A stretch of 64,000 nucleotides of DNA. Origin: Sphyrna mokarran. Lineage: Eukaryota. The position numbers and the translations under genes are program-made. The notes beneath the pieces were generated by a model. That model was not told the origin of the DNA. It saw nothing but the letters and a program-made list of their open reading frames with translations, and did not search any database. Within the stretch, counting starts at the first letter, position 1, and each line of letters opens with the position of its first letter. The DNA lies in contig JAGIQG010000003.1 in the NCBI GenBank assembly GCA_024679065.1, positions 106,516,001 through 106,580,000 of the forward strand, given 5' to 3'. Of this stretch, positions 886 to 63,906 are shown one piece after another.

Positions 886-1118
886 ACTCACTCTCCTTTC
901 TCTCGCAAACATTCCTTCCCTATTTTCTCCCACACTCCTTCCTCTTCCTCACATCCATTCTCCATTCTCCCCCTCATGCCTGCTCTCCTTCCTTCCCCTC
1001 ACGCCCACTCTACTTTCTCCTCCTCACACCCACTTTCCTTACTCCCCCTCACACCTGCTCTCCTTCCTTCCTTTCATGCTTGCCTCCCTCATCTCACACA
1101 TACACACTCTTTTCTCCT
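886..1118. repeat. CT-rich low-complexity tract with imperfect internal repeats
   Basis: Strongly pyrimidine-rich on + strand; motif cccctcaYRcctgctctccttccttcc occurs twice. Confidence 0.8.
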
Positions 1119-5325: not shown

Positions 5326-5491
5326 TATTTTCAATAAGAAGTCTCACAACACCAGGTTAAAATCCAACAAGTTTACCTGGAATCACGAGCTTTCGGAACA
5401 CTGCTCCTTCATTAGGCACATCTGGTGTTGTGAGACTTCTTATTGTGCCCACCCTAGTATAATGCCAGCATCTCCACGATCATATTTTCAA
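5326..5491. mobile_element. Penelope-like inverted pLTR insertion with degenerate hammerhead core; 9-bp TSD TATTTTCAA
   Basis: Arms caataagaagtctcacaacaccag / ctggtgttgtgagacttcttattg; 37-nt tail; TSD at 5326-5334 and 5483-5491. Confidence 0.75.
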
Positions 5492-12519: not shown

Positions 12520-12802
12520 AAGTCACAAGTTGGCTTACATTAATATTGCAAAGAAGTTATTGTGAAAATCTCCAAGTCGCCATAGTTCGGCATCTGTTCA
12601 GGTACACTGAGGAAGAATTTAGCATGGCCAATCCACCTAAACAGCACGTCTTTTGAACTGTGGGAGGAAACTGGAGCACAGAGGAAACCTACACAGACAT
12701 AGGGAGAATGTGCAGTCTCTGCACAGACAGTGGTCCAAGCCAGGAATTCAATCTGGGTCTGTGGTGCTGTGAGGCAGCAGTACTAACCACAGTGCCACTG
12801 TG
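12520..12802 (-). mobile_element. tRNA-derived V-SINE (HE1-like head) with non-CR1-type tail
   Basis: Reverse complement has A-box gtggttagtactgctgcctcacag, B-box-like ttgaattcc, core gtttcctcccacagt, tail taatgtaagccaacttgtgac. Confidence 0.8.
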
Positions 12803-23803: not shown

Positions 23804-23810
23804 ATCCTCA

Positions 23811-24999
23811 GATGGATATTAAGAATGAAGCAGATACAATCGGTGAATCTTGTCCCCCCTCACCTACTCCGGAGAGTTTGGTGATGGGGAGAGAGGGGAG
23901 GCACTTATTTGGCAGGAGAGTGGCAAGTGGGGAACCTGCTACTTGCCTACCTCCACCCCAATTAAGTCTGTGGTAAGAAATCTTGTGGATGACCTTCCCA
24001 ACCACTTGGCAGTATTTGTTTATTGCACCGGAACAAATTGAACATGGCACAGGCTTCCTGGTTGGGAATGGGGGGGTGGGATCTGCTTGTGCCCCCAGAG
24101 TTGCCAACTGAGGCCCTTCACAATGGTAATTATTGCTCAAACTTGTCCTCAACTGAACTATTCAACTTCAGTCCTCAACTGAACTATTCAGCAGCAAATC
24201 TGACTGAATACTATAGCTCACTTGGGATATTAAGAGGGAATCCGTCCTGTTCACTTCAGACAGTAAAGCAGAAAGCGAAGCAGAGCAGTAAACCCGATGA
24301 TGGAGAGACACAACAGTCCTGAACACATCTTCTGCAAAACCAAATGTTGCTGGCCGCCAGTATGATTGGCTGATTGTGCCAAAGCATCTCATTTGTGTTA
24401 GCTGATGTTCAGCCATCAGTATCAATGCAGAATATACAGTGTACAGCAGATGAAATATTGGTACACCATGATATGCTAAATCTAGAATAGGTGCTGTATT
24501 CAGCTTCACAAAATCTATAACTTAGCTACTGACACCTCATGTAAAATTCCTCTAAATTATATTGCCAGGAAGCAACAGAAGACACATGTCCTCTACACCA
24601 ATCCCTATTGTTATTTAATAACACATGAATGAAATAGCTAAATGTATCACCTATTTTTCCACCACTGAAGTTGGAGAATGGTATTAAAAATGAAGCAAAT
24701 AGGTGAATCTTGTCCCCCCTCCCACCCTGCCACTGGAGAGTTTGGTGACAAGGAGAGAGGGGAGGCACTTAATTGGGCAGGACAGTGGCCTCTTGGCTAC
24801 CTCCACCCCAATTAAGTCTGTGATAGGAAATCTTGTGGACAACCTTTCCAACCACTTGACAGTACTTGTCTGTTGCACGGAACAAATTGAACATGGCACA
24901 GGCTTCCTGGTCAGGGGTGAGAGGTGGGATCTACGATCTGCTTGTGCCCCCAGAGTTGCCAACTGAGGCCGTTTACATGGATAATTATTCTTCAAACTT
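23811..24999. repeat. Diverged direct repeat of about 330 bp (23811-24143 and about 24677-24999)
   Basis: Shared blocks ggtgaatcttgtccccc, ctacctccaccccaattaagtctgtg, ggaacaaattgaacatggcacaggcttcctgg, gatctgcttgtgcccccagagttgccaactgaggcc. Confidence 0.9.
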
Positions 25000-25642: not shown

Positions 25643-25899
25643 AGCAGCACAGTGGTATAGTGGTTAGCACTGCTGCCTCACAGAGCCAGAGATCCAGATT
25701 CGATTCCTGGCTTGGGTCATTGTTTGTGTGATATTTGCATGTTTTCTACATGTCTGCATAGGTTTCCTCTGACAAACTGAAAGATATGCTGGTTAGGTGC
25801 ACTGACCTGAACTCTAGGCACTGGAGTGTGGTGGCTAGGGGAGCTCACAATAACTTTATTGCAATGTTAAGCCTTACTTGTGACTAATAAATAAACTTT
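25643..25899 (+). mobile_element. tRNA-derived V-SINE (HE1-like head)
   Basis: A-box gtggttagcactgctgcctcacag, B-box-like gattcgattcc, tail cttacttgtgactaataaataaacttt. Confidence 0.8.
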
Positions 25900-28689: not shown

Positions 28690-30235
28690 CATTACATTGG
28701 AATCTTTGCGACCTATATTCTTCAACAACTTCAGCACTCACATGTGAGCATAGATTGGGTGAGAAGACTCACAAGAGAAACAATCTATTGGTCAGGTATG
28801 AAGAATGACATTGAAATCATCAATATGTGTGAGGCATAGCAAGAACAAATGCCAAATCAACATACAGAACCACTGATTCCATGTTTCTACTCATCCTTAG
28901 TCCAAAATCGCATCTGACCTCTTTCATTTCCATGGTTTCGATTTCATCATCATTATTGACTATATACTAAGTACTCCATTATTTACAATTGCACGATACA
29001 TCAAGCATAACTGTCATGTACATTCTAAGTGCTACTTTGGTGTGTCTGGAGAGTTCATTATGGATAATGATCTGCAAATTTATTAGTAAACCATTTCAGG
29101 ATTTGTGCAAGAGGTAGAATATTGATCACACTACTCCTCATTACTCTGGATCTAACAGCCGAGATAAATAAATGATTTGCATAGTGAAATCCCTAATTCT
29201 CAAATGCAGGCAGACGTAACAAGATCTATATGTTGTAATGTTACATCTGAGAGCAACACCTTTAAGTGAAATTATTCCATCACTGGCAGAGTTCTTGAGA
29301 ACAGTGCATATCTCTTTACCCACTCTTACCCTTTCTATTTTCTCAGACAGTAGAGAGTGACTTTTAAAGCTACAAAGAACATACCAACATCTACTATAAA
29401 AATGCAGGTACAGAATTGCCAAGCTTACAGTTGGTACAAAAGTTCCTATTCAAGATTTCAGAGAAAGTACATGGTAGCAAATGAAAATAACAATGATTTA
29501 TTCAGAATCAAGGTCCTATGAAGTAATTACACAGAAAGATGAAATAGAACATAGAACATTACAGCGCAGAACTGGCCCTTCGGCCTTCGATGTTGCGCCG
29601 ACCAATTATGATAAAAGCAATGACCCTCCAAACTAAACCATTCCCTTCTCTTCCATAAACTTATCAACTAACCTCTTAAACGCTACCAAACTTGGCGCAT
29701 CTCCAACTGCCACAGGCAGGGCATTCCACTCCCTAACCACCCTCTGGGTAAAGAACCTACCTCTGATATCCATCCCATAACTATCACCACTTAATTTAAA
29801 GCTGTGTCCCCTCGTGCTAGCTTTCTCCATCCTAGGAAAAAGACTATCACTGTCCACCCTATCTAAACCTCTAATCATCTTATATGTTTCGATAAGGTCC
29901 CCTCTTAGCCGCCTCCTTTCTAACGAAAACAACCTCAAATCCCTCAGCATCTCTTCATAAGACCTGCCCTCCATACCAGGCAACGTCCTGGTAAACCTCC
30001 TCTGTACCCTCTCCAATGCCTCCACATCTTTCGTATAATGTGGGGACCAGAACTGCACACAATACTCCAAGTGCGGCCGCACTAGAGTTTTGTACAGTTG
30101 CAACATGACGTTGCGGCTCTGAAATTCAATCCCCCTACCAATAAAAGCTAAGACTCCGTATGTCTTCTTAACAACCTTATCGACTTGACTGCCTAATAGT
30201 AATGTATAACTGAGGACAAATCAGATTAGATATTC
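28690..30235 (+). mobile_element. Degenerate Gypsy integrase region, interrupted by a CR1 copy
   Basis: ILQQLQHSH...TRETIYWSGMKNDIE...MCEA (HHCC zinc domain), SKIASDLFHFHG...IIDY, and RSYEV...GQIR across the CR1. Confidence 0.75.
29544..30195 (-). mobile_element. Young 5'-truncated CR1 copy, same subfamily as 21522-23803
   Basis: ORF 29633..30106 is nearly identical to the C-terminus of the larger copy; same 3' UTR. Confidence 0.95.
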
Positions 30236-31249: not shown

Positions 31250-32836
31250 CTAGATAGGGAATAAAGGGAATAAGGAATTAGCATACTATACACAAGCACA
31301 GCACGAACAGTGTAAAAATGTGATCTATCTGCAAGATCAAATGATAATTATGTTGATTAAATTACTATGCTTGCACTATTAAAGGCTTTTTGTTAATTCG
31401 ATGGAAACACTTCATTATATGACTGCTCCCTATATTCATTAATAAATGGTTCAATATATGGTATTTAATTGAATACACAAGTGTAATTATTAACAAGAGC
31501 AATCTTGGCTTCAGAAGCGTTATGTTTAGTCAGAAATGATTAACATACACACAGCTGCATGGCCAAACTACTTATCTTGGTTACTTCTCCCAAGATACGC
31601 TATCATTTTTCCCATTTTCTTTCTGTTCCATTTTCCCCTATGACATCAGGCCTGGTAAATAGGTTCCTCTAATCCCTCTGTCACTGATATTCTTGAGTTG
31701 GTTCTTGATAACAACTGAGAATTTCTAAGTGATAAATGGGTCGCCAATACCCGTTCCAATATTCTCCCCATCCTCTACTGCTCCCACCTTTGTGGAAACT
31801 CTTGCCACCACTCTGAAGGGCAAACAAAATCATCAACTCAACAAAGTGGGGATTGAAACAATGTCCCAAGATTCAGTTACTCAATGCATTTGACCACCAT
31901 CTGCATTACCCACCTTCGATTTTCTGGAATTGCCTTCAATAAACACACTGCCTGGAGTTTTTGCTCATGGTACAATTGGGAAAAATCTGCCTATAATGCT
32001 ACATACACAGAACTGAATCTGCCACAGAAAACTCATGCCAAATTTGCACTCAAACTCATTTGCAAGCCTGAACGTAAAATCTCCCAAGTATCAGGACAGT
32101 GAAGTAATATTTTTGATTGTAATTGATTATTGACTCAAACAACAGGGCCTCAAGATTATTAAATTAAATTAATTTTTGAAAGTTTGTTCACGCAATGCCC
32201 GCATCTGAAGACATATGACACCCAGTGATTTCAACTGCCTGCAGGTCATAGGTCTTATGTACCAAGGACAGACCAAACTACGGAACTTTGACTAATTTAA
32301 AATGAATTTTAAGCATTCTAATATAGCAACAGTATGTGGCGCAGACCTAATTGAGGCTTCAATTAACTGCTGATCACTGCAGCTGCACATCATTAATGTA
32401 GGATTAATGTGACCAAAGATGCCCTTGCAATCAAACTTCTAAATGCAATAAGAAGAATCTGGATCAGACGCAACTGACAGAAATTCACCATGATAACATG
32501 GGAACATGGATCGTTTTCTGAACAAGAGTTACTTCAGCCAAACTGACTTTTGAACTCAATGCAAAAGATCATGAAAGCTCAAGGGTAGGTGGTTCCAGGC
32601 ATAATTCAAAAATGTTTTAAATTCCACAATCCTTTGCATTATTTTAGTCAATTCTGCCTGGATTCTGTGATAATTCGGTGGAAACCATAAACTCCAGCAC
32701 ATTGTTGTTGCAACCAGAAGGATGAATGATCCTTAACATGAAAACTAATTGCACCCAAGGAGCTGAATCCAATGCAGTGTCATGCACAATTACATTTCTC
32801 TCAAACATTTGAGGAAAAATTAATATTTCTATATAC

Positions 32837-33009
32837 CTGCAATGTACTACTACTGGTCCCATGTCTGGTATCTGAGCTGCAGATGACTTTCTTACGAAGG
32901 TGAGTACAGGAAGTGCATATTCTGGTACCCCCATATCAGGCCATTGTGTATAGTGATATTGGATAACCATCCGTTCATTCTGACGACCCTTGGGGTTTCC
33001 CTTTTGTCC
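32837..33009 (-). CDS. PTPRG: PTPRG exon: [57 protein letters not shown](S)
   Basis: 173 nt; ttacAG / GTatat; WPD loop and catalytic Cys; within ORF 32644..33261. Confidence 0.96.
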
Positions 33010-33120: not shown

Positions 33121-33427
33121 GGGTGGCACGGTGGATAGCACTGCTGTCTCATGGCTCCAGGAACCTGGGTTCAATTCCAGTCTCTGTGGAGTTTGCACAT
33201 TCTCCTTTTGTCTAAATTCAGTGTTGTCCGGGTGCTCTGGTTTCCTCCCACAGTCCAACAATGTGTGGATTAAATTGATTGGCCATGCTAAGTTGACCCT
33301 AACATCAGGCAGATTAGCAGGATAAACGTATGGGGTTACAGAAATAGAGCCTGGATGGGATTGTGATTGGTATAGACTCGACGGACCAAATAGCTTCTTC
33401 TATATTATAGGAATTCTATGATTTTAT
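33121..33427 (+). mobile_element. HE1-like SINE with CR1/HER1-type tail
   Basis: gggtggcacggtgg..agcactgctg head, gggttcaattcc B-box, gggtgctctggtttcctcccacagtcca V core, tail ending ttctatgatttt. Confidence 0.8.
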
Positions 33428-34164: not shown

Positions 34165-34390
34165 GTATGCTGACATACTCTCTTCCACCTTCTTCTGTCA
34201 AGAAAATGATACAAAAGTGTAAGGTCACGTATCAACCAACTCAACAACAGCTTCTTCCCCGCTGTCATCAGACTTTTGTTTGGACTTATCATATATCTTT
34301 CTCTACACTCTAGCTCTGAGTGTAACACTACATTCTGCATTCTCTCCTTTCCTTCTCCTTTCTGTACTCCATTAACAGTATGTTTTGGCT
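34165..34390 (+). mobile_element. Rex1/Babar-like (L2-group) LINE 3' fragment
   Basis: Translates roughly HTLFHLLLS.K.YKSVRSRINQLNNSFFPAVIRLL; related minus-strand copy at 53830-54410. Confidence 0.55.
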
Positions 34391-34811: not shown

Positions 34812-35100
34812 TTCATTTATTAGTCAGAAGCAGATTTACAATAACATTGCAATGACGTTACTTGAAAATCCCTGTGTGTCGCCACACTCCGGCACTTATT
34901 AGGGTACTCTTGAGAGAGAATTTAGCACAGTCAATGCACCTAACCAGCACATCTTTCAGATTGTAGGAGGAAACATGAACACCCAGAGGAAATCCAAACA
35001 GGCACAGGGAAAACGTGCAAACTCTGCACAGACGTGACTTAATCTGGGAATTGAGCCCGGATCCTTAGCGCTGTGAGGCAGCACTGTAACCATTGTGCCA
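34812..35100 (-). mobile_element. tRNA-derived V-SINE (HE1-like head)
   Basis: Aligns with the 12520-12802 and 25643-25899 copies. Confidence 0.8.
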
Positions 35101-46235: not shown

Positions 46236-48789
46236 CTAAAAGGGAAAGAACAAACAAAGATGTTGCTGGGCAACTAACACAATTACAGCAGAATGCATGA
46301 GCTGGGTGCAATTAATATACTTTTTGCAAAAAGCTGAGCTGGTGTTACTTGTATGCAAGTCTCAAAAAATGCTTCAGACTTAATTGATGTACACAAATCA
46401 GCTTTGAAGAAAACTAATCAAAATGCAACACACATGGCAAACCAGAATTACTTTGGGATTACAATTTAACAAATGCATTTGGGTAGGAATGGAGAGCTTT
46501 AATTATTTATTTAATATATTGAGACCAAAAGCACACCTGAGCTCAACATGAGATAATAAACCCAATATTGGCTTTGTTTCCTTAGTGACAAAATAAATAT
46601 TTTTTGTATATTCTAAATAATTCAACACTGTGCTCTGATTTTAGAAGCAGAGAATTACATTTAGTGCAATTAGCAAAAGTACAACAGAAGTATGAACTAA
46701 AGTTACTGGATATAAAGGATACCAACACAAATGAAAAAATAAGCAAAAAATGCAGTTTAACACCATTTTCTATCTTCATTTTTTCCATTTTATTGTGTCA
46801 GCAGCAAAAGCAAACTGAGGGAAAAACTGGATTTACAAGGAGATAAATGCAATGATTTGGCATTAAATGTTAAATAAAATCTTCGTAGAAAATGTACTGT
46901 AAGATATTAAAAAGAGGAATTAGAGATAAAAAAATTTCCCATTTGGCTTTCTGCAAAGGTTAAAGCCAAATTAACATTTCGAAACATCAAGGTTTTGTGA
47001 GCATTGGAATGATAGGGTAAGATCAGGATGTTGGAAACAGAAAGGAAAATAACAATATAAATTAAACTCTGAGCAGCAGGGTCCACAATCGCCAGTGCTG
47101 ACAGATTTGAAAACATTATGGGATGAATTTTATGTTTCATACCATTATTACTGGGGGGGCGGTATTATTGAGCAGCAGCAGGTAAGAGTTTGTTATTAAA
47201 TTTATCAGAACTCACCTTAACATTGTCTCAATCAGGACACTTTCCAGGTAGGAACTAACATTAAACATACATGTCCCACTCTCCTTTTGAATAAGTGTTT
47301 AAAAAAAGACACAAATCCTATCCTTTAGCTCCCTTTGTTTCTCCATAAAGGCTAAAAGGCTACCACATGGCAGAGAACACAGCTTTGGCCCAAACCAAGA
47401 ATGGTCCCGTAGTTTGATGATGACTGCTTCCAGGCTGTGTGCAATTGATGGGAGATCCTCAAGCCTGCCGACCTCCCAGCAAGACAAAATTTAAGTCAAG
47501 GCATAGGCAACATCCAAATAACTTAGTTATAGTGCTGTTCAAGGTCCAGTCACCTTTTCTGATTTGCCAGGATGAATGTGTAACCATTTCAGAGATAGAT
47601 CTATACGGAAGGGTATGAGGATGTGACATTTGTCAAGAGAGGGATTGCCTTGTGTCATGGCCAAAGACACAACATGGCATACAGCACACAACAACTCTCC
47701 ACGGCACTGGGGGATTCAGGGTATGTATAGGGGGAAGGCGGAGAGAGATTATAACTAAATCATCTGTTAGTTAGCAAGGAGCATTGAGAAATGTCAATCT
47801 CCAACAAAGAACATATTGACCATACATTAGATTTTAGCAAGCATATTCATTACATTGTCCCTTTTTATTTGCAGAATATGAAGGAACATAATGCTAGAGG
47901 GCTAGGCCTGGAGATGGTCAAGCCAACATGACCATTTTCATCCTGATAAAGCAGGAAGTTCTGCAGCTAGCAGCAGAGCACTGAATCACATTACTGGACT
48001 TAAGTGAAATTGGAGGATGGTCTCAGGGTGATGAGATTTTAAAGACTGAATAACTCTCTTCTGGAAACAGTGCTGAAAAAGAGGTGGTTGAGACAGGAAA
48101 CTGGAAAAGATAGTGGGGAGGTAGAATTGATGGCTTTTGATTTTGTGGATTGCAGAATTTGAGAAGGAATATATATCTCAATGTTGAAGAGTATAAAATT
48201 CAAATCCTGGTTTCCATCTCCCAATGTTAAGTGTGTATTTATAGGAAATGAGTCTCTCTGAAGTAATCGCAAATGATGATGATGTCCCTCATTCTTGTTT
48301 GTTTCCTGCACAACTGAACTGGGAGCTGGAGGGAGAGCAAGAGGAGGAGGAAAAAGCAGGAGGAAGTCAGAAGTGTGCACCATCACATTCTTGCTTCCCA
48401 TTTGGCATCAGCTTACCATAACAACAGCTGAGCTTCCTACCTCTGAATAGGAGGTTCTCATCACCCCAAAGGCTCACTACCTCTGGCAACCAAAGGATGC
48501 CTGCCAATGTCATCCCATGCAAAGGGGCATACAGGTCAGCTGGCGGATGGAGGTGAGGAAATACTAATGGCACAGCATCAATGAACAATTTACCAAAACA
48601 CCACATTAGTCACATATGGGTTCACACAATTGATGGTTCAGTTTTGAGAGTTATGAAAATTGTTTTTATGTAATTATTCTTTTCACATGATATTCCAGCT
48701 GCATTATTATTTCATGCATTTGATTTTCATTTGGGTTGAACGCATGGTGTTAAGGGAATTTGTATTCATGTAGGTTCCTCTGATTTCAA

Positions 48790-49677
48790 ATTTCAAATCT
48801 TGCGATGATACAAAACTTGAAAACATTGTGAACTGTGAGGAGGGTGTAGTGTAGAACTTCAAAGGCTCATAGACGAGTTAGTGGAATGGACAGACAAGTG
48901 GCAGATTAAGTTTAATGTGGAGAAATATGAACTGATTAATTTTGATAAGAAACACATGGAATGCCAATATAAAATAAAGGATACAACTCTAAAGGGGTTG
49001 CAGGAGCAGACAGACCTGGGTGCACATGTACATAAATCACTGAGGGGCAGGTTGACGGAGCAGTTAATAAAGCATACAGGATATTGGGCCTTATTAATAG
49101 AGGAAAAGAGGACAAGAGCAGCACTGTTATGTTGAATTTGTACAAGTCACTAGTTCAGCCTCTGCTGTAGTTTAGTACCTAGTTTTGGATGGTGCATTTC
49201 AAGAAAGATGTGAAGACTTGAGAGATGCTGCAGAACAGATTCACAAGAACGATCCCATGGATAAAGAATTTTATTCTGAAGATAGATTGGAGAAGTTGGG
49301 ACTACTTTCCTTAGACAAAAGATAACAGATCAGATTTGATAGATGTATTCAAATTCATGACGGCCCCAGACAGAGTAGATAGGGAGAAATTATTCCCATT
49401 GTGAAATGCTCAAGGACGAGAGAGCGTGAATTTAAAGTAATCAGCAAAAGAGATATGGGGAGGAACTTTTTTATGTAGCTAGTAGTTAGGAGGTTGGAAT
49501 ATACTTCCCAGGAGTGAGGTGGAGGCAGTTTTAATTGAAGCATTCAGAAAGGAATTAGACTGTTTTCTGAAAAGGATGTGTAGGATTATCGGGAGAGTGG
49601 CACCAAGTGGGTTGCTTATTTGGAGAGCAGGTGTAGGCATGATACACCAAATGGCCCCCTCTACCAGTAACAATTCT
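48790..49677 (+). mobile_element. CR1 LINE 3' fragment
   Basis: DDTKL...EWTDKWQIKFNVEKYE (ORF 48881..49135); CR1-type 3' UTR ending ccagtaacaattct. Confidence 0.8.
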
Positions 49678-50500
49678 GGAATGATGCAGAACTGAAAAAA
49701 TTCAAAGCCACTGTTACCAGATGACTAGCATTATAATTGGAAGCAATCTCCCCAGTCAGCATGTCAGACAGGAATGTGACTGACTCCCTCGAGAGATACA
49801 GTCTTCCGAGGCACTGGCATTCGGACATCTGGAGACATGTCATCCTCACCCTGTATATATGGCTTCCAAGGCAATGCTCTCACTTACCTCTGCCTATCTG
49901 ATGTTGCTGTTTGTCCTCCACAGCCCCTTGCTCTGTGGCAAGTTGTGCAGCTTGCTTGACCTCTCCTGGCTAATTGTCCTCCTCCTCCTCCTCACTGGAG
50001 GAATCACCACCTACAGAATGTACCATTCCCATGGGGTACAGCAATTTAAAGGTTTACAGTGCAGCGTGCAAACTTATTTAAAGCACTTTCTAGATGCCCC
50101 CTTCCCTAGGAAAATGACCAAATGCAGGCTGAAAACTATAGTCAATCAAAATTAAACCACAGTGAAACACTTCAGTAACAGAATCTTCTGCTGAATGCAG
50201 CCACAGTCCTTCACTAAACTTCACATCCACCTTTGCAATACATCCACTTTACCTGATGTCAGTCCAAACATCTTTCAAATGCATCCAGTGAAAAATGAGC
50301 AACATAAAATTCAAGTTCAATGCACTGTTAACGAGCTTAATAGCTTGTTAATTAGCTTTTATTTTCAAAATGTCAGACAGGCTGCCGATTTCGATGACCA
50401 TCCACTTCTAATATTATGGTGACCATCATCAGCATGCCAGATTTTAAACATGCATGTGGAGGAGAGCAGCACTCCTGAGTTCAAAATGTAAAATTCACCC
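49678..50500 (-). mobile_element. PIF/Harbinger transposon remnant (N-terminal transposase + terminal repeat)
   Basis: ORF 49661..49849: QCLGRLYLSRESV...VTVALNFFSSASFQ resembles HARBI1-type xxAALxFxxSGSFQ; ends gtaaaattcaccc. Confidence 0.6.
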
Positions 50501-51109
50501 CTATGTTTTGCGCAGAAGTTTCTCTCAAGGTTACCTACAAATTCAAATCACTACACAAAATATTATTTATTAGCATTTGAGCAGCATATTACATGTGAAA
50601 AAAGATTATAATTCAATATTTCAAAGTGATCAGTGTCATCACACCAAATTAAATTTAAAAAGTGCTGGAAACGAAAACAAAATAGAAATTGCTGGAATGT
50701 GTATCTCTGTCAATATTTAAAAGCCAATAACGTTTCAGGTGAAGTCCTTTATTAGAATGTAGGACCCTTTATCAGAGATCTCAAGCAAATTCTAATCTTA
50801 TTTCTCTTGAGATGCAGCTGTTCTGGTTTGTGGTTCCATTCTGTCTTCTTTTATACTAGGCTTGTTTAGTTTAATTACCCCCAATATTTAGTTCACTATG
50901 AAAGGTTATATGTTTGCTCTAAAAGTTGGATAAAGAACTTATTTATTTAATATTAAACTGTCCTTATTTGAGGAAACTGGATTTCTTGGGAGTAATACAT
51001 ATGAAAATAACACAACTGTGACGATGAAACAAGTAAATTCAATTCTGAACAGGATATTTTTATGGCAATATAATGGAATTATAGTTAAATTGCTATTAAA
51101 GCATTTTTA

Positions 51110-51870
51110 AAAATTCATTCATAGGATGTGAGTATCAATGGCAAAGTCAGCATTTCTTTTACATCCCTTGTCAATTCTTTATCAATTGTGTTTAACTATG
51201 GAGGTAGAGAGCATGAATTGGGGTTTCACTTCAACAAATATGAAGAAACTGAAGCTGTGGTATGTTTGAATTAGGGGGTGTATGCTTGTAATGTTTCACT
51301 CTGAATAAACATAAGACTGAATTGAGATTGGATCCATTACTATCCTTCACCCTTTCTGTGATGTAACATCCCCAACTGCCCTCAAGAAGATAGTGATGAG
51401 CTGCTTTTGAACAGTTATAGTCCATGTGGCAAAAGACTACCACAGTACAGTTAGATAAGAATTTCCAGGTCCCAACAACAATGAAGAAATGGCAAAAATT
51501 TGCAAATAAATTTCGGCTGGAACTCGACCACCTCACCTGCCATGGAATTGGCGCAGGCGAGGATCGAACAACATAAATCTCTGTTGATCTCATTGCCTTG
51601 TTGAGCAAGGCCTAAAAATCCCACCCATAATGTGCAAATTGGAGGGGAACTTGCAGATGATGTTGTCCCCATCTTTATTCTTCTTTGCAATAGAGTTGGA
51701 GGGTTAGAAGGTGTTGTTAAAGAAATTGTAACAAGTTGCTGCAGTACATTTGATTGATGGTACTCAGTGCAGATACCATGCACTAGTGGTAGAGGGAGTG
51801 AATGTTTCAGGTGCTGGATGAGATGCCAATCAAGTGGGCTGTTTTGTTCTGCATGATGGTTGCACTTTTG
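51110..51870 (-). mobile_element. Non-LTR LINE 3' fragment with internal insertions
   Basis: attcattcataggatgtgagtatc..ggcaaagtcagcattt start; matches 62040-62990. Confidence 0.55.
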
Positions 51871-53545
51871 TCCATCAGCAACTTATTCATATAATGAGAA
51901 AATAAGAATAATTTTGGTTTTTCACAAATGGCATAAGAATATGCTTAGCAGAGAACAAATAGAACACATGTAAGATCCATTAAATTGCATCACTGAATGT
52001 ACTGTGAGGTTGATTCAAGTCATGTGAGAAGATTGGGGCAATGAGGCTATGGAAAGTTTTGACCAAGGAAGCTTGATTAGTTAACTGGCAGCCTAGGTAA
52101 GATAGATACATCTACTAACAGTTACACTAAAGAAAATGTTGGGTGGAATTTTCCCAAAACAGTTTTAAGGCGTTGAACTTATGAACCCGTGCCACCCAGC
52201 TTTCAGCGAGGTGAGATGGTAAAGTCTGGTGGGAGATGAAAAGATTAAGCTCGAGCCTGGCATTGCGTTTCCCTGATCGTACCGGCATTGTTTTGCCAGC
52301 AACAGCGATCCAATTCATGCCCACCGCAACTTGGATTTTTCTCCTCATAGGCTATCTTTCCGGCTTGATACGCTGGCCTATCGACAAGTCTTTCTCATGC
52401 ATGTTCCCCAGAATCAGTGGCAAGCTGAGCTGTTGCCCATATTACCAAGGGATTTTGTGCACAAGTACTTAGACAGAGATTGTCCTGTAGCTCCAGAAAA
52501 TAACTTATCACAATTTTTCTGCTCAGTTTCAGCAGCCATTACAGTTAGAGGTAAGTATTGTAGATCAGTTGCTGGAGAAAACCATCAATGAAATCCTTGT
52601 CTAAAATGTAGCCCAGGATTCCTTTAGTTTAAATAATGTAGCTGTACTGTCCATCCCAACTGTTGCTATCAATAATTTGAGAGCAAATTTTAGCATGAGT
52701 TCAATTGTCAGAAGGGCCCTTAATCAGGCACAGGGTGTCATTTATATTTATTTATTAGGCTCTTGCTGCTTTCAGTGTTTGCTCTAGGTCATTAAGAAGT
52801 TAGCTCAGCTAATATGGCATCTGGCATACTTTTGGTCCAGATTGGGCACAGCCGATCACAACATGAAACTTCGAGACCTAATGCCTATCGGACATAGGAA
52901 AATGGGAGAGGAGCTCATGTTGAATTCTTGCCCCCACTGTGTGCATTTTAAAATCCTTTCTATGCAATTCTTATCCTGGTGATAGCTGATGCAATGTATT
53001 GTTAAATTCATCTAGCATCCCTATTATGATTCTCTAGAAACTAATCATTGCAGCTGCACCTGGCATCTGGAACTCACAATTTTATTGAAGGCACATTTGG
53101 ATTATGAAGCTCCCAGATAGGGGAAATAATTATGGTTGCACATGTGAATCAATTAACAGCACAATGTTACAAATTACCCATGGAATACTCTGAGAATGGA
53201 TCTATAGACACATACTCAGGCATTCCAACTGGAGTCATAAATTTGATGGAATCATAAAATTTTACAGCAGATGTAAGCCATTTGGCCCATGACACCTGTG
53301 CCAACTCTTTGAATGAATGCTATTTAGACCCTTTTTTCTTCTTTTTCAAGTATTCATAATTTTAAAAGGCATCACAACTGTTTCTGGCAGGATGTTCCAT
53401 GTGCTTACATTCGTCTGCATAAAAAATTTCCCTTCATTCCTACATTTCTTCATTTCTTTCATTTCATTTCAAATTACTGGCTCAATAATCATAGTAAGAA
53501 TCTGGCAACACCAATTTTAAATCCAACCAATTTATTTGATAGTAA

Positions 53546-53583
53546 ATCTGCGAGCTTTCGACTTTCGTCTTCGTCAGGTAAAT
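53546..53583 (-). ncRNA. Putative minimal hammerhead ribozyme (mirror copy, PTPRG-sense strand)
   Basis: AUUUAC-CUGACGA-A-GAC(GAAA)GUC-GAAA-GCUC-GCAGAU; one A-C mismatch in stem I. Confidence 0.6.
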
Positions 53584-53618
53584 GCAGTGTTCTGGTCCAT
53601 ACCAGACCAGAACACTGC

Positions 53619-53656
53619 ATTTGCCTGATGACGACGAAAGTCGAAAGCTTGCAGAT
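53619..53656 (+). ncRNA. Putative minimal type-I hammerhead ribozyme
   Basis: AUUUGC-CUGAUGA-C-GAC(GAAA)GUC-GAAA-GCUU-GCAGAU: stem I, core boxes, stem II, palindromic AGCU stem III. Confidence 0.65.
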
Positions 53657-53829
53657 TCACTATCAAATAAATCGGTTGGATTTAAAATTGGTGTTGCCAG
53701 ATTCTTACTGATTTACCTCAGTCCAACGCCGGCATCTCTACATCATCAATAATCATACACAGGCTTCCATCTGTCAACAGGATTGTCTGCTGAAATAATA
53801 GTTTTGGTAGATTCCTAAATCATCATTTA

Positions 53830-54410
53830 ATTTGATTTGATTTATTATTGTCACATGTATTAGTAAACAGTGAATATCATTGTTTCTTGCACATTACACA
53901 GACAAAACATACCACATATAGGGAAAAAAAGCAGAAAGTGTAGAATGTAATGTTATAGTCATAGCTAGAGAAAGACCAACTTAATGTGAGGTAGGTCCAT
54001 TCAAAATCTGATGGCAACAGAGAAGAAGTTGTTTTTGAGTCAGTTGATATGTGCTTTCAGACTTCTGTATCTTTTTCCTAATAGAAGAAGGTGAAGAGTA
54101 TGTCTGGAGTATATGAGACGTTTGATAATGCCGGCTGTTTTTCCAAAGCAGGGGGAAATGTAGACAGTGTCAAAGGATGGAGGAAGCCAGTTTGAGTAAT
54201 GGACTGGACTTCATTCAAGGCCCTTTGTAGTTTTTTGGGTTCTTGGACAGGGCAGGGATTATACCAAGCTGTGATACAAACAGAAAGAATGCTTCCTATG
54301 TGTATCTGTAGAAGGTGGTAAAAACATCTGCAAGGAGGGACCAGGACAGGTTGTTGATGATCTGGACACCTAAAATCTCTCGACCATTTCTACTTTATTC
54401 CCATTGATGT
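53830..54410 (-). mobile_element. Rex1/Babar-like LINE 3' fragment
   Basis: (atttg)n tail at left; reverse-complement match to 34165-34390. Confidence 0.55.
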
Positions 54411-57024
54411 AGATAAGGTAAATAAGGCAGATGAAGTTAATTTTTTTAATTACAGATAACTATATGATTTAATTTTGACCAAAGATGTTTTAAAATTAAT
54501 ACATTTGTACTTTACATTTCTAGTTTTAAGTGATTCATTATCTGAATGGACCTCTGCAAGATCTGCTGTGTGGTAAGAAGCATAGTGCAATCAAGAGCAA
54601 GCCCAGAGCTCCAGCTCCATTACTTTTTACATTCTAAATAAATATATCCAAATGCAGTAAGACATTCTATCTCAGTTCCCTACTTTCCTGACCATTCGTC
54701 CATCCACTTAATGGCAAGTACCAGGACCATTTCTTTGAGACCCCAGCAGCAGCCTCTTTGCCGCCCAAAATCTTGCTGCAGCTAGTTAATGCTTTCCAAC
54801 AGCTTTGGACATGAATTTTATGGTGGCTGTGCAGATGAAGCTCGGGTATTGAAGTCTCCTGTGCCTAAGACTGAAGAGGGTCATACAGTTGATCATCCAC
54901 CTCGACTCCTCACCCACATGGCTTTCAATTGACTCCTCGCCTGCACAGCTTTCAGTGAGAGTTGCAATCAGGACTATAGTACTGAATTAGATTGGGTGCA
55001 AGTTCTATGAGTATAGTGGCTTCTTGCTTTCTTTTATACTATGACTATATTAAAGAATCAAGCTGCTAGCTAACATTAGACGCATTTTTGTCACATTCAC
55101 ATTTCTTTGAAACCCATTGAAGCACTTCATAGATATTGAATTACTTTAAGGCCCATTGCCTGCTGTTATATAGACAAACACTCCATAATATATTGTATTA
55201 ATACATCTGCTGAGAAAGATCGGTTAATGGAATCCGGAGACTAGTCAAAACAGGAGGATCCTCTTAAATGTTGAAGAGCTTTTGGCTGTTAGGTTTGTAG
55301 TTTTCTCTGCAAATTGTAGTTGCAATGTCCTCACTTGCAATAAATTTACTGGCCGACTCTTCACAGCCTTTTACACAAGGAGGAGTCTCTTAAGAGCACA
55401 ATGGCGAAAGACAAGGAAGTATCTTTGGCCGACATTGTAAAGTTCCAATTTATTGTAATTCTTCCAACAGCAAGTTAAGTTCTTGTATGAGAAAAATCAG
55501 AAGCACTAAATTTCAGAAGCAGAGAAGGACAACTAAGGAATAGGCAAGTACACATTCATGTGTTGGACCCATTAAAACTGAACTATATGGTGCTATTTGA
55601 AACAAAATGATTAATATTTCTGATAGGTTTAGGAATTTTGATCTACTAATGTTCAAAGGTCCCTGACAAATATTTTGCCATGTTTGCTGAATTGCTCCCT
55701 CCAAACAGTCCTGAAGCTGGATGTGCTTCATTATAGGTGTATGCATAGCAAGATAATTTATCAGGTTATAAAAATACAGAGAATATTGCAAACTGAACTA
55801 TTTATTGGCTAAAACTTAATGTTGGATTTGTATCCTACTGACTCTAAGGTTGTCAGGTAATTAAGCATGCTGTAGCTTTGAAAATGTGACTGTTGTTGCC
55901 AGTGTCTAAATGCATCTCCCTTGAGCTGACAATGTTACCATGTGCTGCTTGGTTGTTTTCTTATTAGGAATGCTGCATTGCTTCATTTGATAAACTGTTT
56001 ATACAAAGACATCAGCATAATAGTGGAAGTTCCCTTTATCAACAGATTGGCAGGATGTGGTTTTGTTTTTATACTTCCCACATTTCAGATGGAATTTAAT
56101 TGCATCGCCCTTGGCAAGTTAGGTACCAGGGGTTATTTAATCAGGTGGGAGGGTGGCCTCCTTCTTTCTAATTAAGTCTATGGCGGAAGAGTCCAGTGGT
56201 AGCCACCCTGTCCTGTCACCTTTTGAGGCTCTCAAGTGGGCAATTAATGCTTAGTTAAGGGCCTCACTGCCAGCGATGCTACTAATTCAGCTACTAAGGC
56301 AGTTCGGGAACTAGGCATGTGAGGGACTTGACAAATCCATTGCAGGCTCCCAGAGTGTCCCACTTTCAAAGGCTCTGATTGAAGGACCTGACATCAGCAC
56401 GGAGGTGGAACTGCCGACAGCTACTTACGTGGTCTTGATGCTGACCCTCCTCGTCCACAACTCCAAATTGCAAACTCCTTCCTGCCATCAGTCATCTGTG
56501 ACCTAAGTTCCAGCGATGATACTAGGGCTCAGGTGGATGTTATGTTAGAAACAGGCACCACCAACTAAACAATTTGATTAATTGACAGATCTTGGCCAGC
56601 AGGATCACTGTTCCTATATTCTAGTTCCTAGGGGCGATCCCCCACTGTCCAGTTAAGTGTCTGAGTGGTACTTAATCCTGTGAGAAGTTCCCTAAAATAG
56701 ACAACTTTGTTCCAATTTCAAGTGCAATGCTGTGTAGAAGAAGCCAAGGTCAGTCCCCAGAAAAGAAGTGAAAAATTTGAAAGGTGACCACCCTGTACTT
56801 CTTTCAGGTATTCTCTCTGGTATTGATCGAGGCTGAGGAGCAATCTCCAGTTCATCCTCTTACGGGACAATCTCCATAATATAACAAAAAAAGGTACGAC
56901 CATCTCCACCAAAGCAAACTTTGGTTAAAACAACTCATTAAAAAAAAGAATAGGCATTAAACTTGTGTCTGTAGATTAGAATGGACATCCAGTTATATTC
57001 AAGGTTCTGTGTTACTTTCTTCGT

Positions 57025-57776
57025 TTGTGGATGACACCAAAATTGGTGGTGTAGTGGACAGTGAAGAAGGGTTATCTCAGATTACAATGGGATCTTGATC
57101 AACTGGGCCAGTGGGCTGAGGAATGGCAGATAGAGTTTAATTCAGATAAATGCGACGTGTTGCATTTTTGTAAGATCAACCAGGGCAGAGTTTGCACAGT
57201 TAATGGTAGGTACTGGGGGAGTGTTGTCGAACAGAGCTGCAGGTACATAGTTCCTTGAAAGTGACATCACAGGTAGACAGGGTGGTGAAGAAGGCATTTG
57301 AAACACTTGCCTTCACTGCCTACAGGAGTTGGCACTTATGTTACAACTGTAGGTGACATTGGTAAGACCATGCTTGGAGTGCTGCATACAGTTCTGGTTG
57401 CCCTGCTATAGAAAAATGTTATTAAACTGGGAAGGGTGCAAAAAAGATTTACAAGAATGTTATCAGAACTTGAAGGTTTGATTGTGAGAGGCTGGATAAG
57501 CTGGGACTTTTTTCCCCTTGAGCTTAGGAGATTGAGGGGAGGCCTTATAGAAATTTACAAAATCATGAGGGGTATAGATAAGGTGACTAGCCAAGATCTT
57601 TTCTTCAGTGAAGCAGAGTCCAACACTAGACGGCATATGTTTAAGTGATAGGGGAAAGATATGAAAGGGATCTGTAGGGTGTCAAATGGGATTAATTCAG
57701 TTTAGGAAACCTGCTTGGCATGGACAAGTTGGATCTAAGGGTCTGTTTCTGTGCTGTATATCTCTATGATTCTATG
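57025..57776 (+). mobile_element. CR1 LINE 3' fragment
   Basis: FVDDTKIGGVVDSEEG, LQWDLDQLGQWAEEWQIEFNSDKC, QKRFTRML; tail ctatgattctatg. Confidence 0.85.
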
Positions 57777-58325
57777 AGTGTTGTCTGCCAACAGCCCTCA
57801 ATGTAGTAAATCTTCTTTACTGCTAACTTCAAATTCAAATAATCATGAAGATGCAAAGATTTGTAAATGGAGCAGTAGATGTCTGAATTTCAGACAGAAA
57901 GTCTGAGTTAGCTTTTAAATAAATTTGCAAATTCTACGACAGGCCAGTAAAACACTTTAGAACATGGTGCAAGGAAAGTTATTTTGAAATAAGAAAATCT
58001 AAGGTTAAGCACAACTAGATTTTAAGGGGTCATTGAATAATCAAGAATGAAGATAATAATCAACACAAGAACATTGTGTTTTTTAAGTAATGTCAAAAAG
58101 ATATTCAAGAATGAAAAATGAAAAATAATGATAAATGTCTTTTCTAAACAGTGATGTAGAGGAAACTATAATAATGGATGAATACAGCACAGGAATAAGT
58201 TGTTTGGTAATGATAGTCAATGTTTCCTTCAAAAGTGTCCAAATGTAATCCAACTTTCCTCTCTTGTTCAAGCTATTAATTTACTCTTTCTTAAATACAA
58301 GGGTTCTGCTTCAAGAATAGTTTAA

Positions 58326-58451
58326 GGGTTGAATTTTCCTCTACTGCCTGCCACGGGAATCATAGCAAGTGGGACAGCACCATGCAAAAGTCCACTGGCC
58401 TCAAGCTGGATTTTCTGGTCTTGGGGTGAGCGTGGCTAGAAAATCCTGCCC
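58326..58451. mobile_element. Short Harbinger-type MITE
   Basis: TIR-like ends gggttgaattttc / gaaaatcctgccc, flanked by taa and tat. Confidence 0.5.
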
Positions 58452-60793
58452 TATGGCAAAGAATTCCACATTTTAATCACCTTTTGTGTGAAGAAGCACC
58501 TCCTGTTTAATTCTTTTTGACAAGTGTCTTATTTTTGGATCCTCCCCTTGTGAACTGATGAAAAGAAATCTACAACTATTTACCTCTGCATAATCTTTTA
58601 TAAACCTGAAGATCTCACTATTGCATCACCCTCTTAACTTTTACAGCTGTAGTGAAAGAAAGCTTTGATTTCTTGAGCCAGTTATTGTAACTGAAATGCA
58701 TCACTTCAGATGCAAAATAATTCAACACAAACTCAAATTCTGTGCCCATTTTGATAACGAGGCCCAGGTGTGCATCAGACCTATACATTCCGGTGCAGGG
58801 ACCATTCCCTGCACACCCAATTTTTGACATAAATATAAATTTTACATGGAAGTTAAACTGAATATTAAAACTACCAAGAATCAAAACTTCTTTTGAAATT
58901 TATAAGCCTGCATTCTGCATTTTGCCAACGAGAACAGATTTTATGATCCCTCTGCCAATTCTATCATACACCTAGACAAACTAACTATTTCCCTACGTCA
59001 GAGTAAAAACTATCTGTTTGGTGTTCAGTGCTTTGTTACAGTATGTCATCAAGATTGTCCGTGAACTGTGTGGCCAGATGAATCAAAAGTAGGAAATAGC
59101 TGTCTCAGCAACATTAAGCAACATTCTAGCTGCCAGTGTTTTGGTAGCTGTTTGGTTAGTATGAAGTGGAAGAATATTGTGATTCACAAGGCTGAAGGCA
59201 TCATGGTGGTGTGGGGCAGGCTGAATGGACCATCTCGTCTTCTCCTAACATCATTTTTGTATGCTCATGTGTTTGTAAGCCCTTTGCTTCACTATCATTA
59301 AATCTTGAGAATCAGCTGAAGGAAACGCACAATTTCTGCTTCCTTATAAAAGGTGGATACATCTCATGATCAGGAGAGCACTAAAATAATTATGTAGGAA
59401 ACTAAAAACAAAATTTAAAAAATTGCAGCAATATGAGGTTCTATTGTCCAATGAGGCTCTGTTGTCAAAGTGAACCTAATGTTCATCTGCAATCTGCTTC
59501 TCAGGGCCTGATGTGTACACTTGTCAACAGACAGACAGGGACAATTATTCAAAGTGAATGAACAGAAGACAGTGATCAACAGCACCCAGTGAAAACCTGT
59601 GACAGGAGGTCGATGAAGATAATTTATCCAGGCAAGCCTGTTTAACTACTGCACAGAAGAATAAAACATGAAGGATTCACCTCTGCTACAGTGGCACTGC
59701 AAATAAAATCATAAAAAAGTAGATTATTTAAATTTAGGTGCTCAATAGAATTCTAGTAGATCTTAACAGACAGTGTGCAACTAACCAACTGGGGAAACAT
59801 TTGATTCCTTATCTAAGGATTAACAGATACAGGTCTTTAACCTTAATGCTCCTGGCATTATGGTGAAAGGGCACTGATGAAAGCAAAGTGTAACTGCATG
59901 ACAAATGTATGCATGCATTCTTACTGCCTGGTATCAAATCAATGTTTTGTGACATGGTCTTATCATTCCTGTCAACAGATATTTGACAGACAAGTAAATT
60001 AGCAACATTTAGGTTCTCAGCATTTGAGAGTCAGGTAATAAGAACTAGATAAAACTTGAATCAAGTGAAATATAATTTAATGACTGAAAGCTTTGCATAT
60101 TATGCACTAGTAACATTTTAGACCAAAAACAGTAGTATTTTCAAATTCCTCTATGGAAAACACTGTAACAGTCTATCCAGTGGTTTCTGTGACAATCTTC
60201 TTGCCAAGAATATAATAATCTTACTTTTTATGTCCTATATATCCATTCATTTAAATACACACATCGTCCTTGCATTCTGTGTGGGTCAAATGTAAGCAAA
60301 ATCTGTCATATATCTCTGGAATCAACTGCCTCCCCACCACCCCCTACTCTCTCTAGACCAAGCAGGTTAAAAATGCAGTTATAAATCATTAGGATTTCAG
60401 ACTAAAACTTTGTATGAATCAACGATGCTGTGTTTTTTGCAGGGTCACAAATCACGCACTTGAGGCAAGACCAATATAGCAACTAAACATTTAATCAAAA
60501 TGTGATATTTTCAGTACAAGGCATGAAAGCCATTCCATCTTACCCATGTTTTGAGTTAGTAAAAATTACAATAAATTCCTAAGTTTATTATTACATTGCA
60601 AAATATAAACATGCCATTGACTGATTCGTCAATAAAGGACTTGGGCAATCATAGATTAAGGACTAACTTGAAAGGATATTTTTATTATATACTGCTTAAG
60701 TTGTATAAATATGAACCCGAACAAAATGGCATTCAAAAATTGTGTTGCAATATTTACAAAAAGTATCTCGAGAAAAAGGAATAACTGACTTAC

Positions 60794-63673: not shown

Positions 63674-63906
63674 CTGACTGATATGACTGGTTATGAGGTG
63701 GCGTTGGACTGGGGTAAACACAGTAAGAAGTCTCACAACACTAAATTAAAGTCCAACAAGTTTATTTGGTAGTAAATGCCACTAGCATTCAAACTCCTCA
63801 CTCACCTGAGAAAGGAGCAGCACTCCAAAAGCTAGTGGCATTAACTACCAAATAAATCTGTTGGACTTTAACCTGGTGTTGTGAAATTTCTGACTGACAT
63901 GACTAG
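63674..63906. mobile_element. Penelope-like inverted pLTR insertion with decayed hammerhead core
   Basis: Tail gcgttggactggggtaaaca, arms about 63721-63786 and 63831-63896; flanking direct repeat ctgactgaYatgactRg. Confidence 0.75.

What the first reader, a model, noticed from the sequence alone, without database searches (positions are those of the whole stretch)
53482..53757. Palindromic retro-insertion carrying two back-to-back hammerhead ribozyme cores inside a PTPRG intron
Seen: a 105-bp inverted repeat (6 mismatches, 7-nt loop), a 36-nt unpaired tail and a perfect 12-bp TSD. Each arm has CUGANGA / GAC-GAAA-GUC / GAAA-GCUH, closed on + by stem I AUUUGC:GCAGAU, so transcripts of either strand contain a core. 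Known: Penelope-like elements carry minimal type-I hammerheads in their pLTRs, with a palindromic stem III that needs dimerisation, and they leave inverted pLTRs with a 34-37 nt tail. Inference: this is a young, ORF-less, ribozyme-bearing element with a variant core (AGCU stem III, CUH cleavage triplet, extra base after A9). In PTPRG pre-mRNA it would either form about 105 bp of dsRNA that masks the ribozyme, or cleave the intron.
Basis: partly seen in the sequence, partly recalled or inferred. Interest (0 to 1): 0.8.

Follow-up and report, generated by a model that had tools for sequence, protein, structure and literature searches.

The report
Inverted Penelope remnant in shark intron
This is an ordinary remnant of a Penelope-type retrotransposon in a shark gene intron; it carries two mirror-image copies of a known miniature ribozyme motif that most likely stay zipped into a hairpin and do not cut the gene's RNA.

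Summary
The anatomy is real: 105-bp arms (99/105), 7-nt loop, 36-nt tail, perfect 12-bp TSD, one minimal hammerhead core per strand, mid-way in a 14.6-kb intron of an elasmobranch PTPRG transcribed from the minus strand. It is a head-to-head pair of short Penelope-like pLTR ends. Two older sisters with the same TSD/inverted/tail layout and broken cores lie in the same window. The 'variant core' is not a variant: the extra base, G10.1-C11.1 and palindromic 15.2-16.2 define the published PLE min-HHR, and 5 of 56 published examples, one from turtle, have the same GAAA-GC-U core. Only the 3-bp stem II is uncommon. Intron cleavage is unlikely. On either strand the antisense arm is transcribed first, the hairpin beats the ribozyme fold by 52-56 kcal/mol, and the core on the pre-mRNA strand has a stem I mismatch and no intact dimer partner in the window. 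'Young' is not shown. No link to a PLE ORF could be tested genome-wide. One lead remains: the arm differences hit all three free core positions, a weak hint that the arms came from two RNA templates.

The parts
53482..53493 (.). Target-site duplication, left copy (12 bp, 83% AT)
53494..53597 (-). Left arm: tail-less pLTR 3' end, element-sense on the minus strand, i.e. the PTPRG-sense strand (pairing extends 1 nt into the TSD, to 53493)
53546..53583 (-). min-HHR motif on the pre-mRNA strand: C3 at 53577, extra A, 3-bp stem II, GAAA-GC-UC, H17 at 53552; stem I pair 2 is an A-C mismatch (53579)
   Evidence: P(stem I) about 0.001 or less even as a lone arm
53531..53536 (-). AATAAA downstream of the minus-strand core, in PTPRG-sense orientation, paired inside the hairpin
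53598..53604 (.). 7-nt loop at the head-to-head junction
53605..53709 (+). Right arm: pLTR 3' end, element-sense on plus (antisense to PTPRG)
53619..53656 (+). min-HHR motif, 38 nt: stem I 53619-53624 with 53651-53656 (6 pairs), CUGAUGA 53625-53631, extra C 53632, stem II 53633-53642, GAAA 53643-53646, GC 53647-53648, U16.1 53649, U17 53650
53675..53727 (+). Possible 8-bp stem between pLTR (53675-53682) and tail (53720-53727), also present in sister B; candidate RT-initiation structure (inference)
   Evidence: 8 of 8 pairs in both of the 2 sequences that have a tail; MFE shows it for B but not for A
53710..53745 (+). 36-nt unpaired tail, homologous to the tails of sisters B and C
53746..53757 (.). 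Target-site duplication, right copy
46236..60793 (-). Host intron of PTPRG (14,558 nt, GT-AG) between two cytoplasmic juxtamembrane-region exons; insert lies 7.0 kb from the donor and 7.2 kb from the acceptor
63674..63904 (.). Sister copy B: 15-bp TSD (1 mismatch), tail on the left, inverted arms 85.5% identical, core with G8 and G12 altered
5326..5491 (.). Sister copy C: 9-bp TSD, minus-strand arm with core (G5 altered), short 24-bp inverted arm plus tail

Best explanation
A dead-on-arrival insertion of an endonuclease-bearing Penelope-like element (PLE) of sharks: two short pLTR 3' ends joined head-to-head between a 12-bp target duplication, one end with the family's tail and one without. 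How it arose (inferred): a PLE RT/GIY-YIG protein encoded elsewhere made staggered nicks in AT-rich DNA; reverse transcription started at the family's two start sites, which bound the tail, and both cDNAs stopped just 5' of the ribozyme. What the ribozyme is for (inferred from literature): in the source element the min-HHR processes multimeric PLE RNA, only as a dimer through the AGCU palindrome and probably with protein help. What it does here (computed): on either strand the antisense arm is made before the core, so a 105-bp hairpin forms and the cores never fold. The likely effect in PTPRG pre-mRNA is a passive intronic dsRNA, a probable ADAR substrate, with no cleavage.
For: Shown: anatomy. 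Two sisters with TSD + inverted arm + one tail, and tail-less ends at about the same element position. Family motif found 5 times, 0 in 100 shuffles. Two-sided changes between subfamilies in 2 of 4 stem I and 2 of 3 stem II pairs, slid controls 0. Hairpin -173 vs -117 (+) and -121 (-) kcal/mol for the forced HHR fold. P(stem II) at most 2e-8 in 16 of 16 nascent prefixes. Sister cores broken at invariant positions. Literature: min-HHR hallmarks, no monomer cleavage, low dimer cleavage, opposite-strand pairs 100-700 bp apart (PMC4209133); inverted pLTRs, tails and 8-10 bp TSDs (PMC3846280; PMC8557442); two RT start sites bounding the tail, both strands nicked and extended, HHR protein-assisted and dispensable for insertion (PMC11167929); PLEs expanded in whale-shark introns (10.1101/443036); lizard Penelope heavily A-to-I edited (PMC5625713).
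Against: No PLE ORF was linked: 0 of 132 frames of at least 70 aa in the window hit GIY-YIG, and the 2 RT hits lie 30 kb away and look like a CR1-type LINE by recall. PLE identity thus rests on non-coding anatomy. The turtle motif with the same core was not marked as PLE-ORF-associated in its paper. Covariation rests on 3 loci, and shuffles reached the observed score in 18 of 500. None of 13 invariant core positions differs between arms, though that has P=0.44 by chance. Folding is an equilibrium calculation without proteins or editing.
Confidence: 0.85

Rival explanations
1. Same family, different birth: one cDNA folded back on itself at a short natural hairpin and copied itself (self-priming), so the arms were identical at insertion and all 6 differences are later decay.
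For: The arms end at exactly mirror positions around a 7-nt loop. 3 of 6 differences are CpG-type transitions. Self-priming was proposed for PLE inverted junctions (PMC3846280).
Against: It does not by itself explain why the second arm stops about one tail-length short in all 3 copies. Sisters B and C have unequal arms. It implies about 1e7-2e8 generations of age. This rival concerns only the joining step; family identity is unaffected.
Confidence: 0.45
2. A distinct non-autonomous palindromic element that is transcribed and mobilised whole, with its short stem II as a family trait.
For: Both arms share the 3-bp stem II and are only 69-78% identical to sisters B and C, so copy A comes from its own subfamily. 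Non-autonomous PLE derivatives are known.
Against: The three copies have three different junctions and arm lengths, as expected if the inversion is made afresh at each insertion. Only 1 copy of this subfamily lies in 64 kb.
Confidence: 0.12
3. A live intronic ribozyme that cuts PTPRG pre-mRNA (or an antisense RNA) when editing, a helicase or a PLE protein opens the hairpin.
For: All 13 invariant core positions are intact in both arms. The lone plus arm folds stems I and II with P about 0.55 and 0.78. The Anolis PLE HHR is protein-assisted.
Against: 52-56 kcal/mol penalty. Antisense arm transcribed first. Pre-mRNA-strand core has P(stem I) about 0.001 or less. The two cores are on opposite strands, so they cannot be each other's dimer partner, and no other intact core exists in the window. 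Plus core has an extra C that can pair with G12; A10C was strongly detrimental in the CChMVd hammerhead (PMC3705267), though 11 of 56 PLE motifs carry C there. 8 of 9 Xenopus retrozyme dimers did not cleave.
Confidence: 0.03
4. A DNA-transposon foldback or MITE, or a microRNA hairpin, with chance hammerhead-like words.
For: Long inverted repeat plus TSD. Rfam miRNA models score up to 46.8 bits.
Against: All miRNA scores are far below gathering (46.8 vs 90). The repeat does not abut both TSDs (36-nt tail). Sisters have unequal arms. Descriptor 0 hits in 12.8 Mb of shuffles. Stems covary.
Confidence: 0.02

Closest known systems
Minimal type-I hammerheads (min-HHR) of metazoan Penelope-like elements (Cervera and de la Pena 2014, PMC4209133), closest row Chrysemys picta bellii in Fig. 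S3
   Same: CUGANGA + extra base, G10.1-C11.1, GAAA, palindromic 15.2-16.2 with no loop 3, NUH, short stem I. The turtle row has the same GAAA-GC-UU core followed by a CAAAUAAAUC flank, which also follows the plus core here. Opposite-strand pairs close together were reported there.
   Different: Stem II is 3 bp with a GAAA tetraloop (3-bp stem II in 1 of 56 rows). No shark row in that table. Here both cores sit in one near-perfect symmetric hairpin.
Inverted-pLTR insertions of EN+ PLEs (Adineta vaga Penelope, PMC3846280; general scheme in PMC8557442)
   Same: Head-to-head inverted pLTRs, a 30-40 bp tail at one end only, short TSD (8-10 bp there; 12, 15 and 9 bp here).
   Different: No ORF between the repeats; both halves are only about 105 bp. 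Clade (Neptune or Poseidon) not determined.
Poseidon element PAc of Anolis carolinensis (PMC11167929)
   Same: HHR in the pLTR, tail, AT-rich target; its two RT start sites and two-strand extension would produce this layout.
   Different: No sequence comparison was made; PAc is autonomous and tandem.
Animal non-LTR retrozymes (bioRxiv 10.64898/2026.07.22.740005)
   Same: ORF-less, type-I HHR, PLE-pLTR-related; reported in one chondrichthyan; 42-44% of Xenopus copies are intronic.
   Different: Defined by head-to-tail tandem units that can form dimer ribozymes; this is a single inverted pair with tail and TSD.

Membership tests
PLE min-HHR (PMC4209133) | Core CUGANGA ... GAAA ... UH | tested here: met
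   13 of 13 invariant positions in both arms
PLE min-HHR (PMC4209133) | Extra nucleotide between 9 and 10.1; G10.1-C11.1 pair | tested here: met
   C on +, A on -; G-C pair in both
PLE min-HHR (PMC4209133) | Palindromic 15.2-16.2, no stable stem III | tested here: met
   AGCU; self-duplex -2.5 kcal/mol; same GC in 5 of 56 published rows
PLE min-HHR (PMC4209133) | Helix I closing the core | tested here: inconclusive
   6 of 6 pairs on +; 5 of 6 on - with the mismatch at pair 2
PLE min-HHR (PMC4209133) | Helix II of usual length (4 bp or more) | tested here: inconclusive
   3 bp here; 1 of 56 published rows has 3 bp; sisters have 4 bp
PLE min-HHR (PMC4209133) | Self-cleavage as a dimer | not testable with these tools
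   needs in vitro assay
Rfam hammerhead families | Covariance-model match | tested here: not met
   no hammerhead family among 12 and 4 matches up to E=10; expected if the models need a stem III (recalled)
EN+ Penelope-like element insertion | Head-to-head inverted pLTR ends | tested here: met
   3 of 3 family loci in the window
EN+ Penelope-like element insertion | 30-40 bp tail at one end only | tested here: met
   36 nt in A; about 34 and 37 nt in B and C
EN+ Penelope-like element insertion | Short TSD at an AT-rich site | tested here: met
   12, 15 and 9 bp; 83%, 60% and 89% AT
EN+ Penelope-like element insertion | RT + GIY-YIG ORF attached, within the window | tested here: not met
   0 of 132 frames of at least 70 aa hit GIY-YIG; normal for truncated copies, so this is not an autonomous copy
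EN+ Penelope-like element insertion | Family linked to an RT + GIY-YIG ORF elsewhere in the genome; clade assignment | not testable with these tools
   no eukaryote genome collection; the one prokaryote-genome scan gave 0 hits
Non-LTR retrozyme | Head-to-tail tandem units each with a type-I HHR | tested here: not met
   no tandem array at the locus; cores on opposite strands
MITE / foldback DNA transposon | Terminal inverted repeats abutting both TSD copies, constant ends | tested here: not met
   36-nt tail between arm and TSD; unequal arms in B and C
microRNA precursor (Rfam) | Score at or above gathering threshold | tested here: not met
   best 46.8 vs 90 bits

The most novel reading that the evidence does not exclude
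The two arms were copied from two different, each functional, RNA templates by a dimeric PLE ribonucleoprotein that primed reverse transcription from both target nicks, one at each of the two start sites. Shark head-to-head insertions, which may be very numerous (3 in this 64 kb), would then be a genomic record that can settle how PLE inverted pLTRs and one-sided tails are made. This subfamily would also carry one of the smallest natural hammerheads (38 nt, 3-bp GAAA-capped stem II). The hint: the 6 arm differences hit all 3 free core positions (N7, extra base, H17) and 0 of 13 invariant ones; P is about 1e-4 uniform, 0.013 with CpG weighted tenfold, 0.002 on an ancestral-CpG model, all post hoc.
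Probability: 0.22. Interest if true: 0.5.

Novelty: new member of a known kind. Interest (0 to 1): 0.2.

Why it matters
As a locus it matters little. It is one of three family copies inside this gene's 64 kb, and intronic PLE fragments are common in sharks. It adds an elasmobranch example of the PLE min-HHR with an unusually short stem II; a search for 'hammerhead ribozyme' with 'elasmobranch' found 0 papers, though one chondrichthyan was sampled in a 2026 preprint. The family as a whole could be useful: many short, slowly decaying head-to-head insertions allow a direct test of two-template priming against fold-back, a step of PLE integration that PMC11167929 leaves unvalidated. They may also be a sizeable source of intronic dsRNA for ADAR in sharks.

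Tried and rejected
Rfam scans: no hammerhead model hit; miRNA and snoRNA hits all below gathering, rejected as generic hairpin or chance. GTDB scan with the family's degenerate motif: 0 hits; uninformative for a vertebrate repeat. Sigma-70 promoter/terminator scan: not applicable to a eukaryote, at chance level. Pfam on the 127-aa frame across the element and on 132 window frames: no GIY-YIG; 64 shorter frames (40-69 aa) near the three copies were listed but not scanned. Test for selection on the core between arms: 0 of 6 differences in 13 invariant sites is not significant (P=0.44); enrichment of differences in the HHR region is not significant (P=0.12). 'Extra C kills the plus core' was considered and weakened, since 11 of 56 published PLE motifs carry it. 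Species assignment: named shark PTPRG proteins score almost equally, so only 'elasmobranch, probably shark' is claimed. De la Pena and Flores 2001 and Lunse et al. 2017 are not held; their content is taken from reviews. Supplements of the two bioRxiv preprints were not seen; the retrozyme preprint's tables may list this family for its one chondrichthyan.

Full report
Observation. The sequence holds an inverted repeat at 53493-53597 / 53605-53709, 99 of 105 positions complementary, with a 7-nt loop, a 36-nt unpaired tail (53710-53745) and a perfect 12-bp direct repeat at 53482-53493 / 53746-53757. Such a match at the junctions has a chance of about 6e-6. A minimal-hammerhead descriptor finds exactly 2 sites in the window, one in each arm, and none in 200 shuffles (12.8 Mb). 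On plus, C3 is 53625, the extra base 53632, stem II 53633-53642, H17 53650, and stem I closes 6 of 6 pairs. On minus, C3 is 53577, H17 53552, and stem I has an A-C mismatch at its second pair. Rfam gave no hammerhead match up to E=10 on the region (12 matches) or on the single arm (4 matches); the miRNA matches are far below gathering.

Host context. An exon at 32836-33003 (minus) matches PTPRG best among solved structures (107.7 bits vs 79.8 for PTP zeta) and is 100% identical to named Carcharodon and Stegostoma PTPRG proteins. tblastn with 10 named cartilaginous-fish proteins placed the exons on the minus strand from 60905 down to 393; sharks score almost equally and the chimaera lowest, so the host is an elasmobranch, probably a shark, species not determined. 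The insert lies in a 14,558-nt GT-AG intron (46236-60793), 7.0 and 7.2 kb from its ends; no further exon was found in it with 4 proteins tested. The pre-mRNA therefore carries the minus-strand core.

Family. The element is not alone. blastn, a profile search and a motif search found two sisters (motif 5 hits, 0 in 100 shuffles). B (63674-63904) has a 15-bp TSD with 1 mismatch, a tail on the left and arms 85.5% identical. C (5326-5491) has a 9-bp TSD, one long arm and a 24-bp inverted arm with tail. A is 69-78% identical to them. In all 3 loci both TSD junctions are element 3' ends, one tailed and one not; the tail-less end falls within about 6 nt of the same position and shows 1, about 7 and 3 nt of similarity to the target. 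B and C keep hammerhead remnants with a 4-bp stem II but with changes at invariant positions (G8 and G12 in B, G5 in C). Between subfamilies, 2 of 4 stem I pairs and 2 of 3 stem II pairs change on both sides; slid controls show none, while shuffles reach the covariation score in 18 of 500. With 3 loci this is modest, but it fits a ribozyme selected in the source elements and decaying in the copies.

Is the core a variant? No. PMC4209133 (main text parts 1-3 of 4 and supplement parts 1-2 of 3 read) lists the nucleotide between 9 and 10.1, the G10.1-C11.1 pair and palindromic 15.2-16.2 as hallmarks of the PLE min-HHR. By my hand count of its Fig. S3 (56 rows; the PDF text lost its columns, so the GAAA column was placed by the consensus row), 54 of 56 have the extra base, 11 of 56 have C there, 5 of 56 have GC at 15.2-16.2 (2 of these 5 marked as PLE-ORF-associated), and 1 of 56 has a 3-bp stem II. 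The turtle row has the same GAAA-GC-UU core followed by CAAAUAAAUC, as here. The paper also reports pairs of min-HHRs 100-700 bp apart on opposite strands. Only the 3-bp GAAA-capped stem II is uncommon.

Insertion anatomy in the literature. Inverted head-to-head pLTRs, a one-sided tail and 8-10 bp TSDs are described in PMC3846280 (passages) and PMC8557442 (passages: tail 30-40 bp); PMC8969392 says the same in brief (passages). PMC11167929 (parts 1-2 of 4 and passages) shows that the Anolis PLE protein nicks and extends both strands at AT-rich sites, starts reverse transcription at two sites that bound the tail, has an HHR that cleaves only with protein, and does not need cleavage for insertion. 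Two target-primed events meeting in the middle would give the layout seen at all 3 loci; that step is my inference. Fold-back self-priming is the rival and fits the exact symmetry of A. A search for 'twin priming' with 'Penelope' listed 3 papers, none on PLE mechanism by title (listing only). PLEs are reported in all vertebrates sampled (PMC4350176, passages) and as expanded in whale-shark introns, 30% intronic (10.1101/443036, passages). No GIY-YIG frame was found among 132 window frames of at least 70 aa, and no eukaryote genome collection was available, so the link to a PLE ORF is untested.

Does it cut? The full insert folds at -173 kcal/mol on both strands; forcing the hammerhead fold gives -117 (+) and -121 (-). 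In a head-to-head pair the complement of the core is transcribed before the core on either strand, and in 16 of 16 nascent prefixes P(stem II) was at most 2e-8. As a lone arm, plus folds stems I and II (P about 0.55 and 0.78), but minus does not form stem I (about 0.001 or less). min-HHRs show no monomer and low dimer cleavage (review passages PMC6765202), and 8 of 9 Xenopus retrozyme dimers did not cleave (bioRxiv 10.64898/2026.07.22.740005, parts 1 and 3 of 5 and passages). The two cores are on opposite strands and cannot partner each other, and the window holds no other intact core. The plus core's extra C can pair with G12; A10C was detrimental in the CChMVd hammerhead (review passage PMC3705267; PMC1636495 passages, mention only A10), though it is common in PLE motifs. 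The expected effect on PTPRG is a passive 105-bp dsRNA. Lizard Penelope and palindromic frog repeats are heavily A-to-I edited (PMC5625713, passages), so editing is plausible here; that is inference, not data.

Age. A is less diverged than B. If its arms began identical, 6/105 differences give about 4e7 generations (2e7 without the 3 CpG-type transitions; range 1e7-2e8) at 7e-10 per generation (PMC10587355, passages). A perfect 12-bp TSD has P=0.49 at that divergence. 'Young' holds only if the arms differed at birth.

The one lead. The 6 differences fall on N7, the extra base, H17, stem I position 2.2 and two flank sites. None touches the 13 invariant positions (P=0.44), but all 3 free core positions are hit: P about 1e-4 if uniform, 0.013 with CpG sites weighted tenfold (a definition that counts sites CpG in either arm), 0.002 on an ancestral-CpG model. 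The test is post hoc, N7 and H17 are CpG transitions, and the stem I change is damaging, so this is a hint only. It would fit two different functional templates.

Verdict. Real, well described, and a new member of a known kind: a truncated inverted PLE insertion with standard min-HHRs, most likely silent as a ribozyme. Searches for prior shark reports: 'hammerhead ribozyme' + 'elasmobranch' 0 papers; 'shark' + 'Penelope' + 'genome' + 'transposable' 19 papers (listing; 3 searched for passages); 'Penelope' + 'palindromic' + 'non-autonomous' + 'hairpin' + 'insertion' 3 reviews (listing). Repeat libraries such as Repbase or Dfam could not be searched and may already hold the family. Interest 0.2.

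Noticed in passing
window 63674-63904: Sister insertion B of the same family: 15-bp TSD whose first 7 nt resemble the element's own tail-less end, suggesting homology-assisted priming.
   Followed up: partly
window 5326-5491: Sister insertion C: long arm with a broken core plus a 24-bp perfectly inverted arm and tail, 9-bp TSD, 3-nt end microhomology.
   Followed up: partly
window 21519-23859 (-) and 29539-30220 (-): LINE with Pfam RVT_1 hits in two frames (frameshifted), CR1-type by recall; a second 3' fragment is 92.4% identical over 659 bp.
   Followed up: no
window 53531-53536 (-): AATAAA in PTPRG-sense orientation inside the left arm; could act as a cryptic intronic poly(A) signal but is paired in the hairpin.
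   Followed up: no
window 53675-53682 with 53720-53727 (+); also copy B: 8-bp complementarity between pLTR body and tail, kept in both tailed copies aligned, with one G-U/G-C change; candidate RT-initiation stem.
   Followed up: partly
window 12521-12802, 25648-25806, 33123-33294, 34822-35100; also 34172-34365 with 53914-54104, and 23812-24144 with 24678-24999: Other dispersed repeat families at 68-80% identity, one starting about 160 bp right of the element; not identified.
   Followed up: no
window 929-1071: C/T-rich tandem array, 25-nt unit, 5.5 copies, in the intron before the last exon mapped.
   Followed up: no
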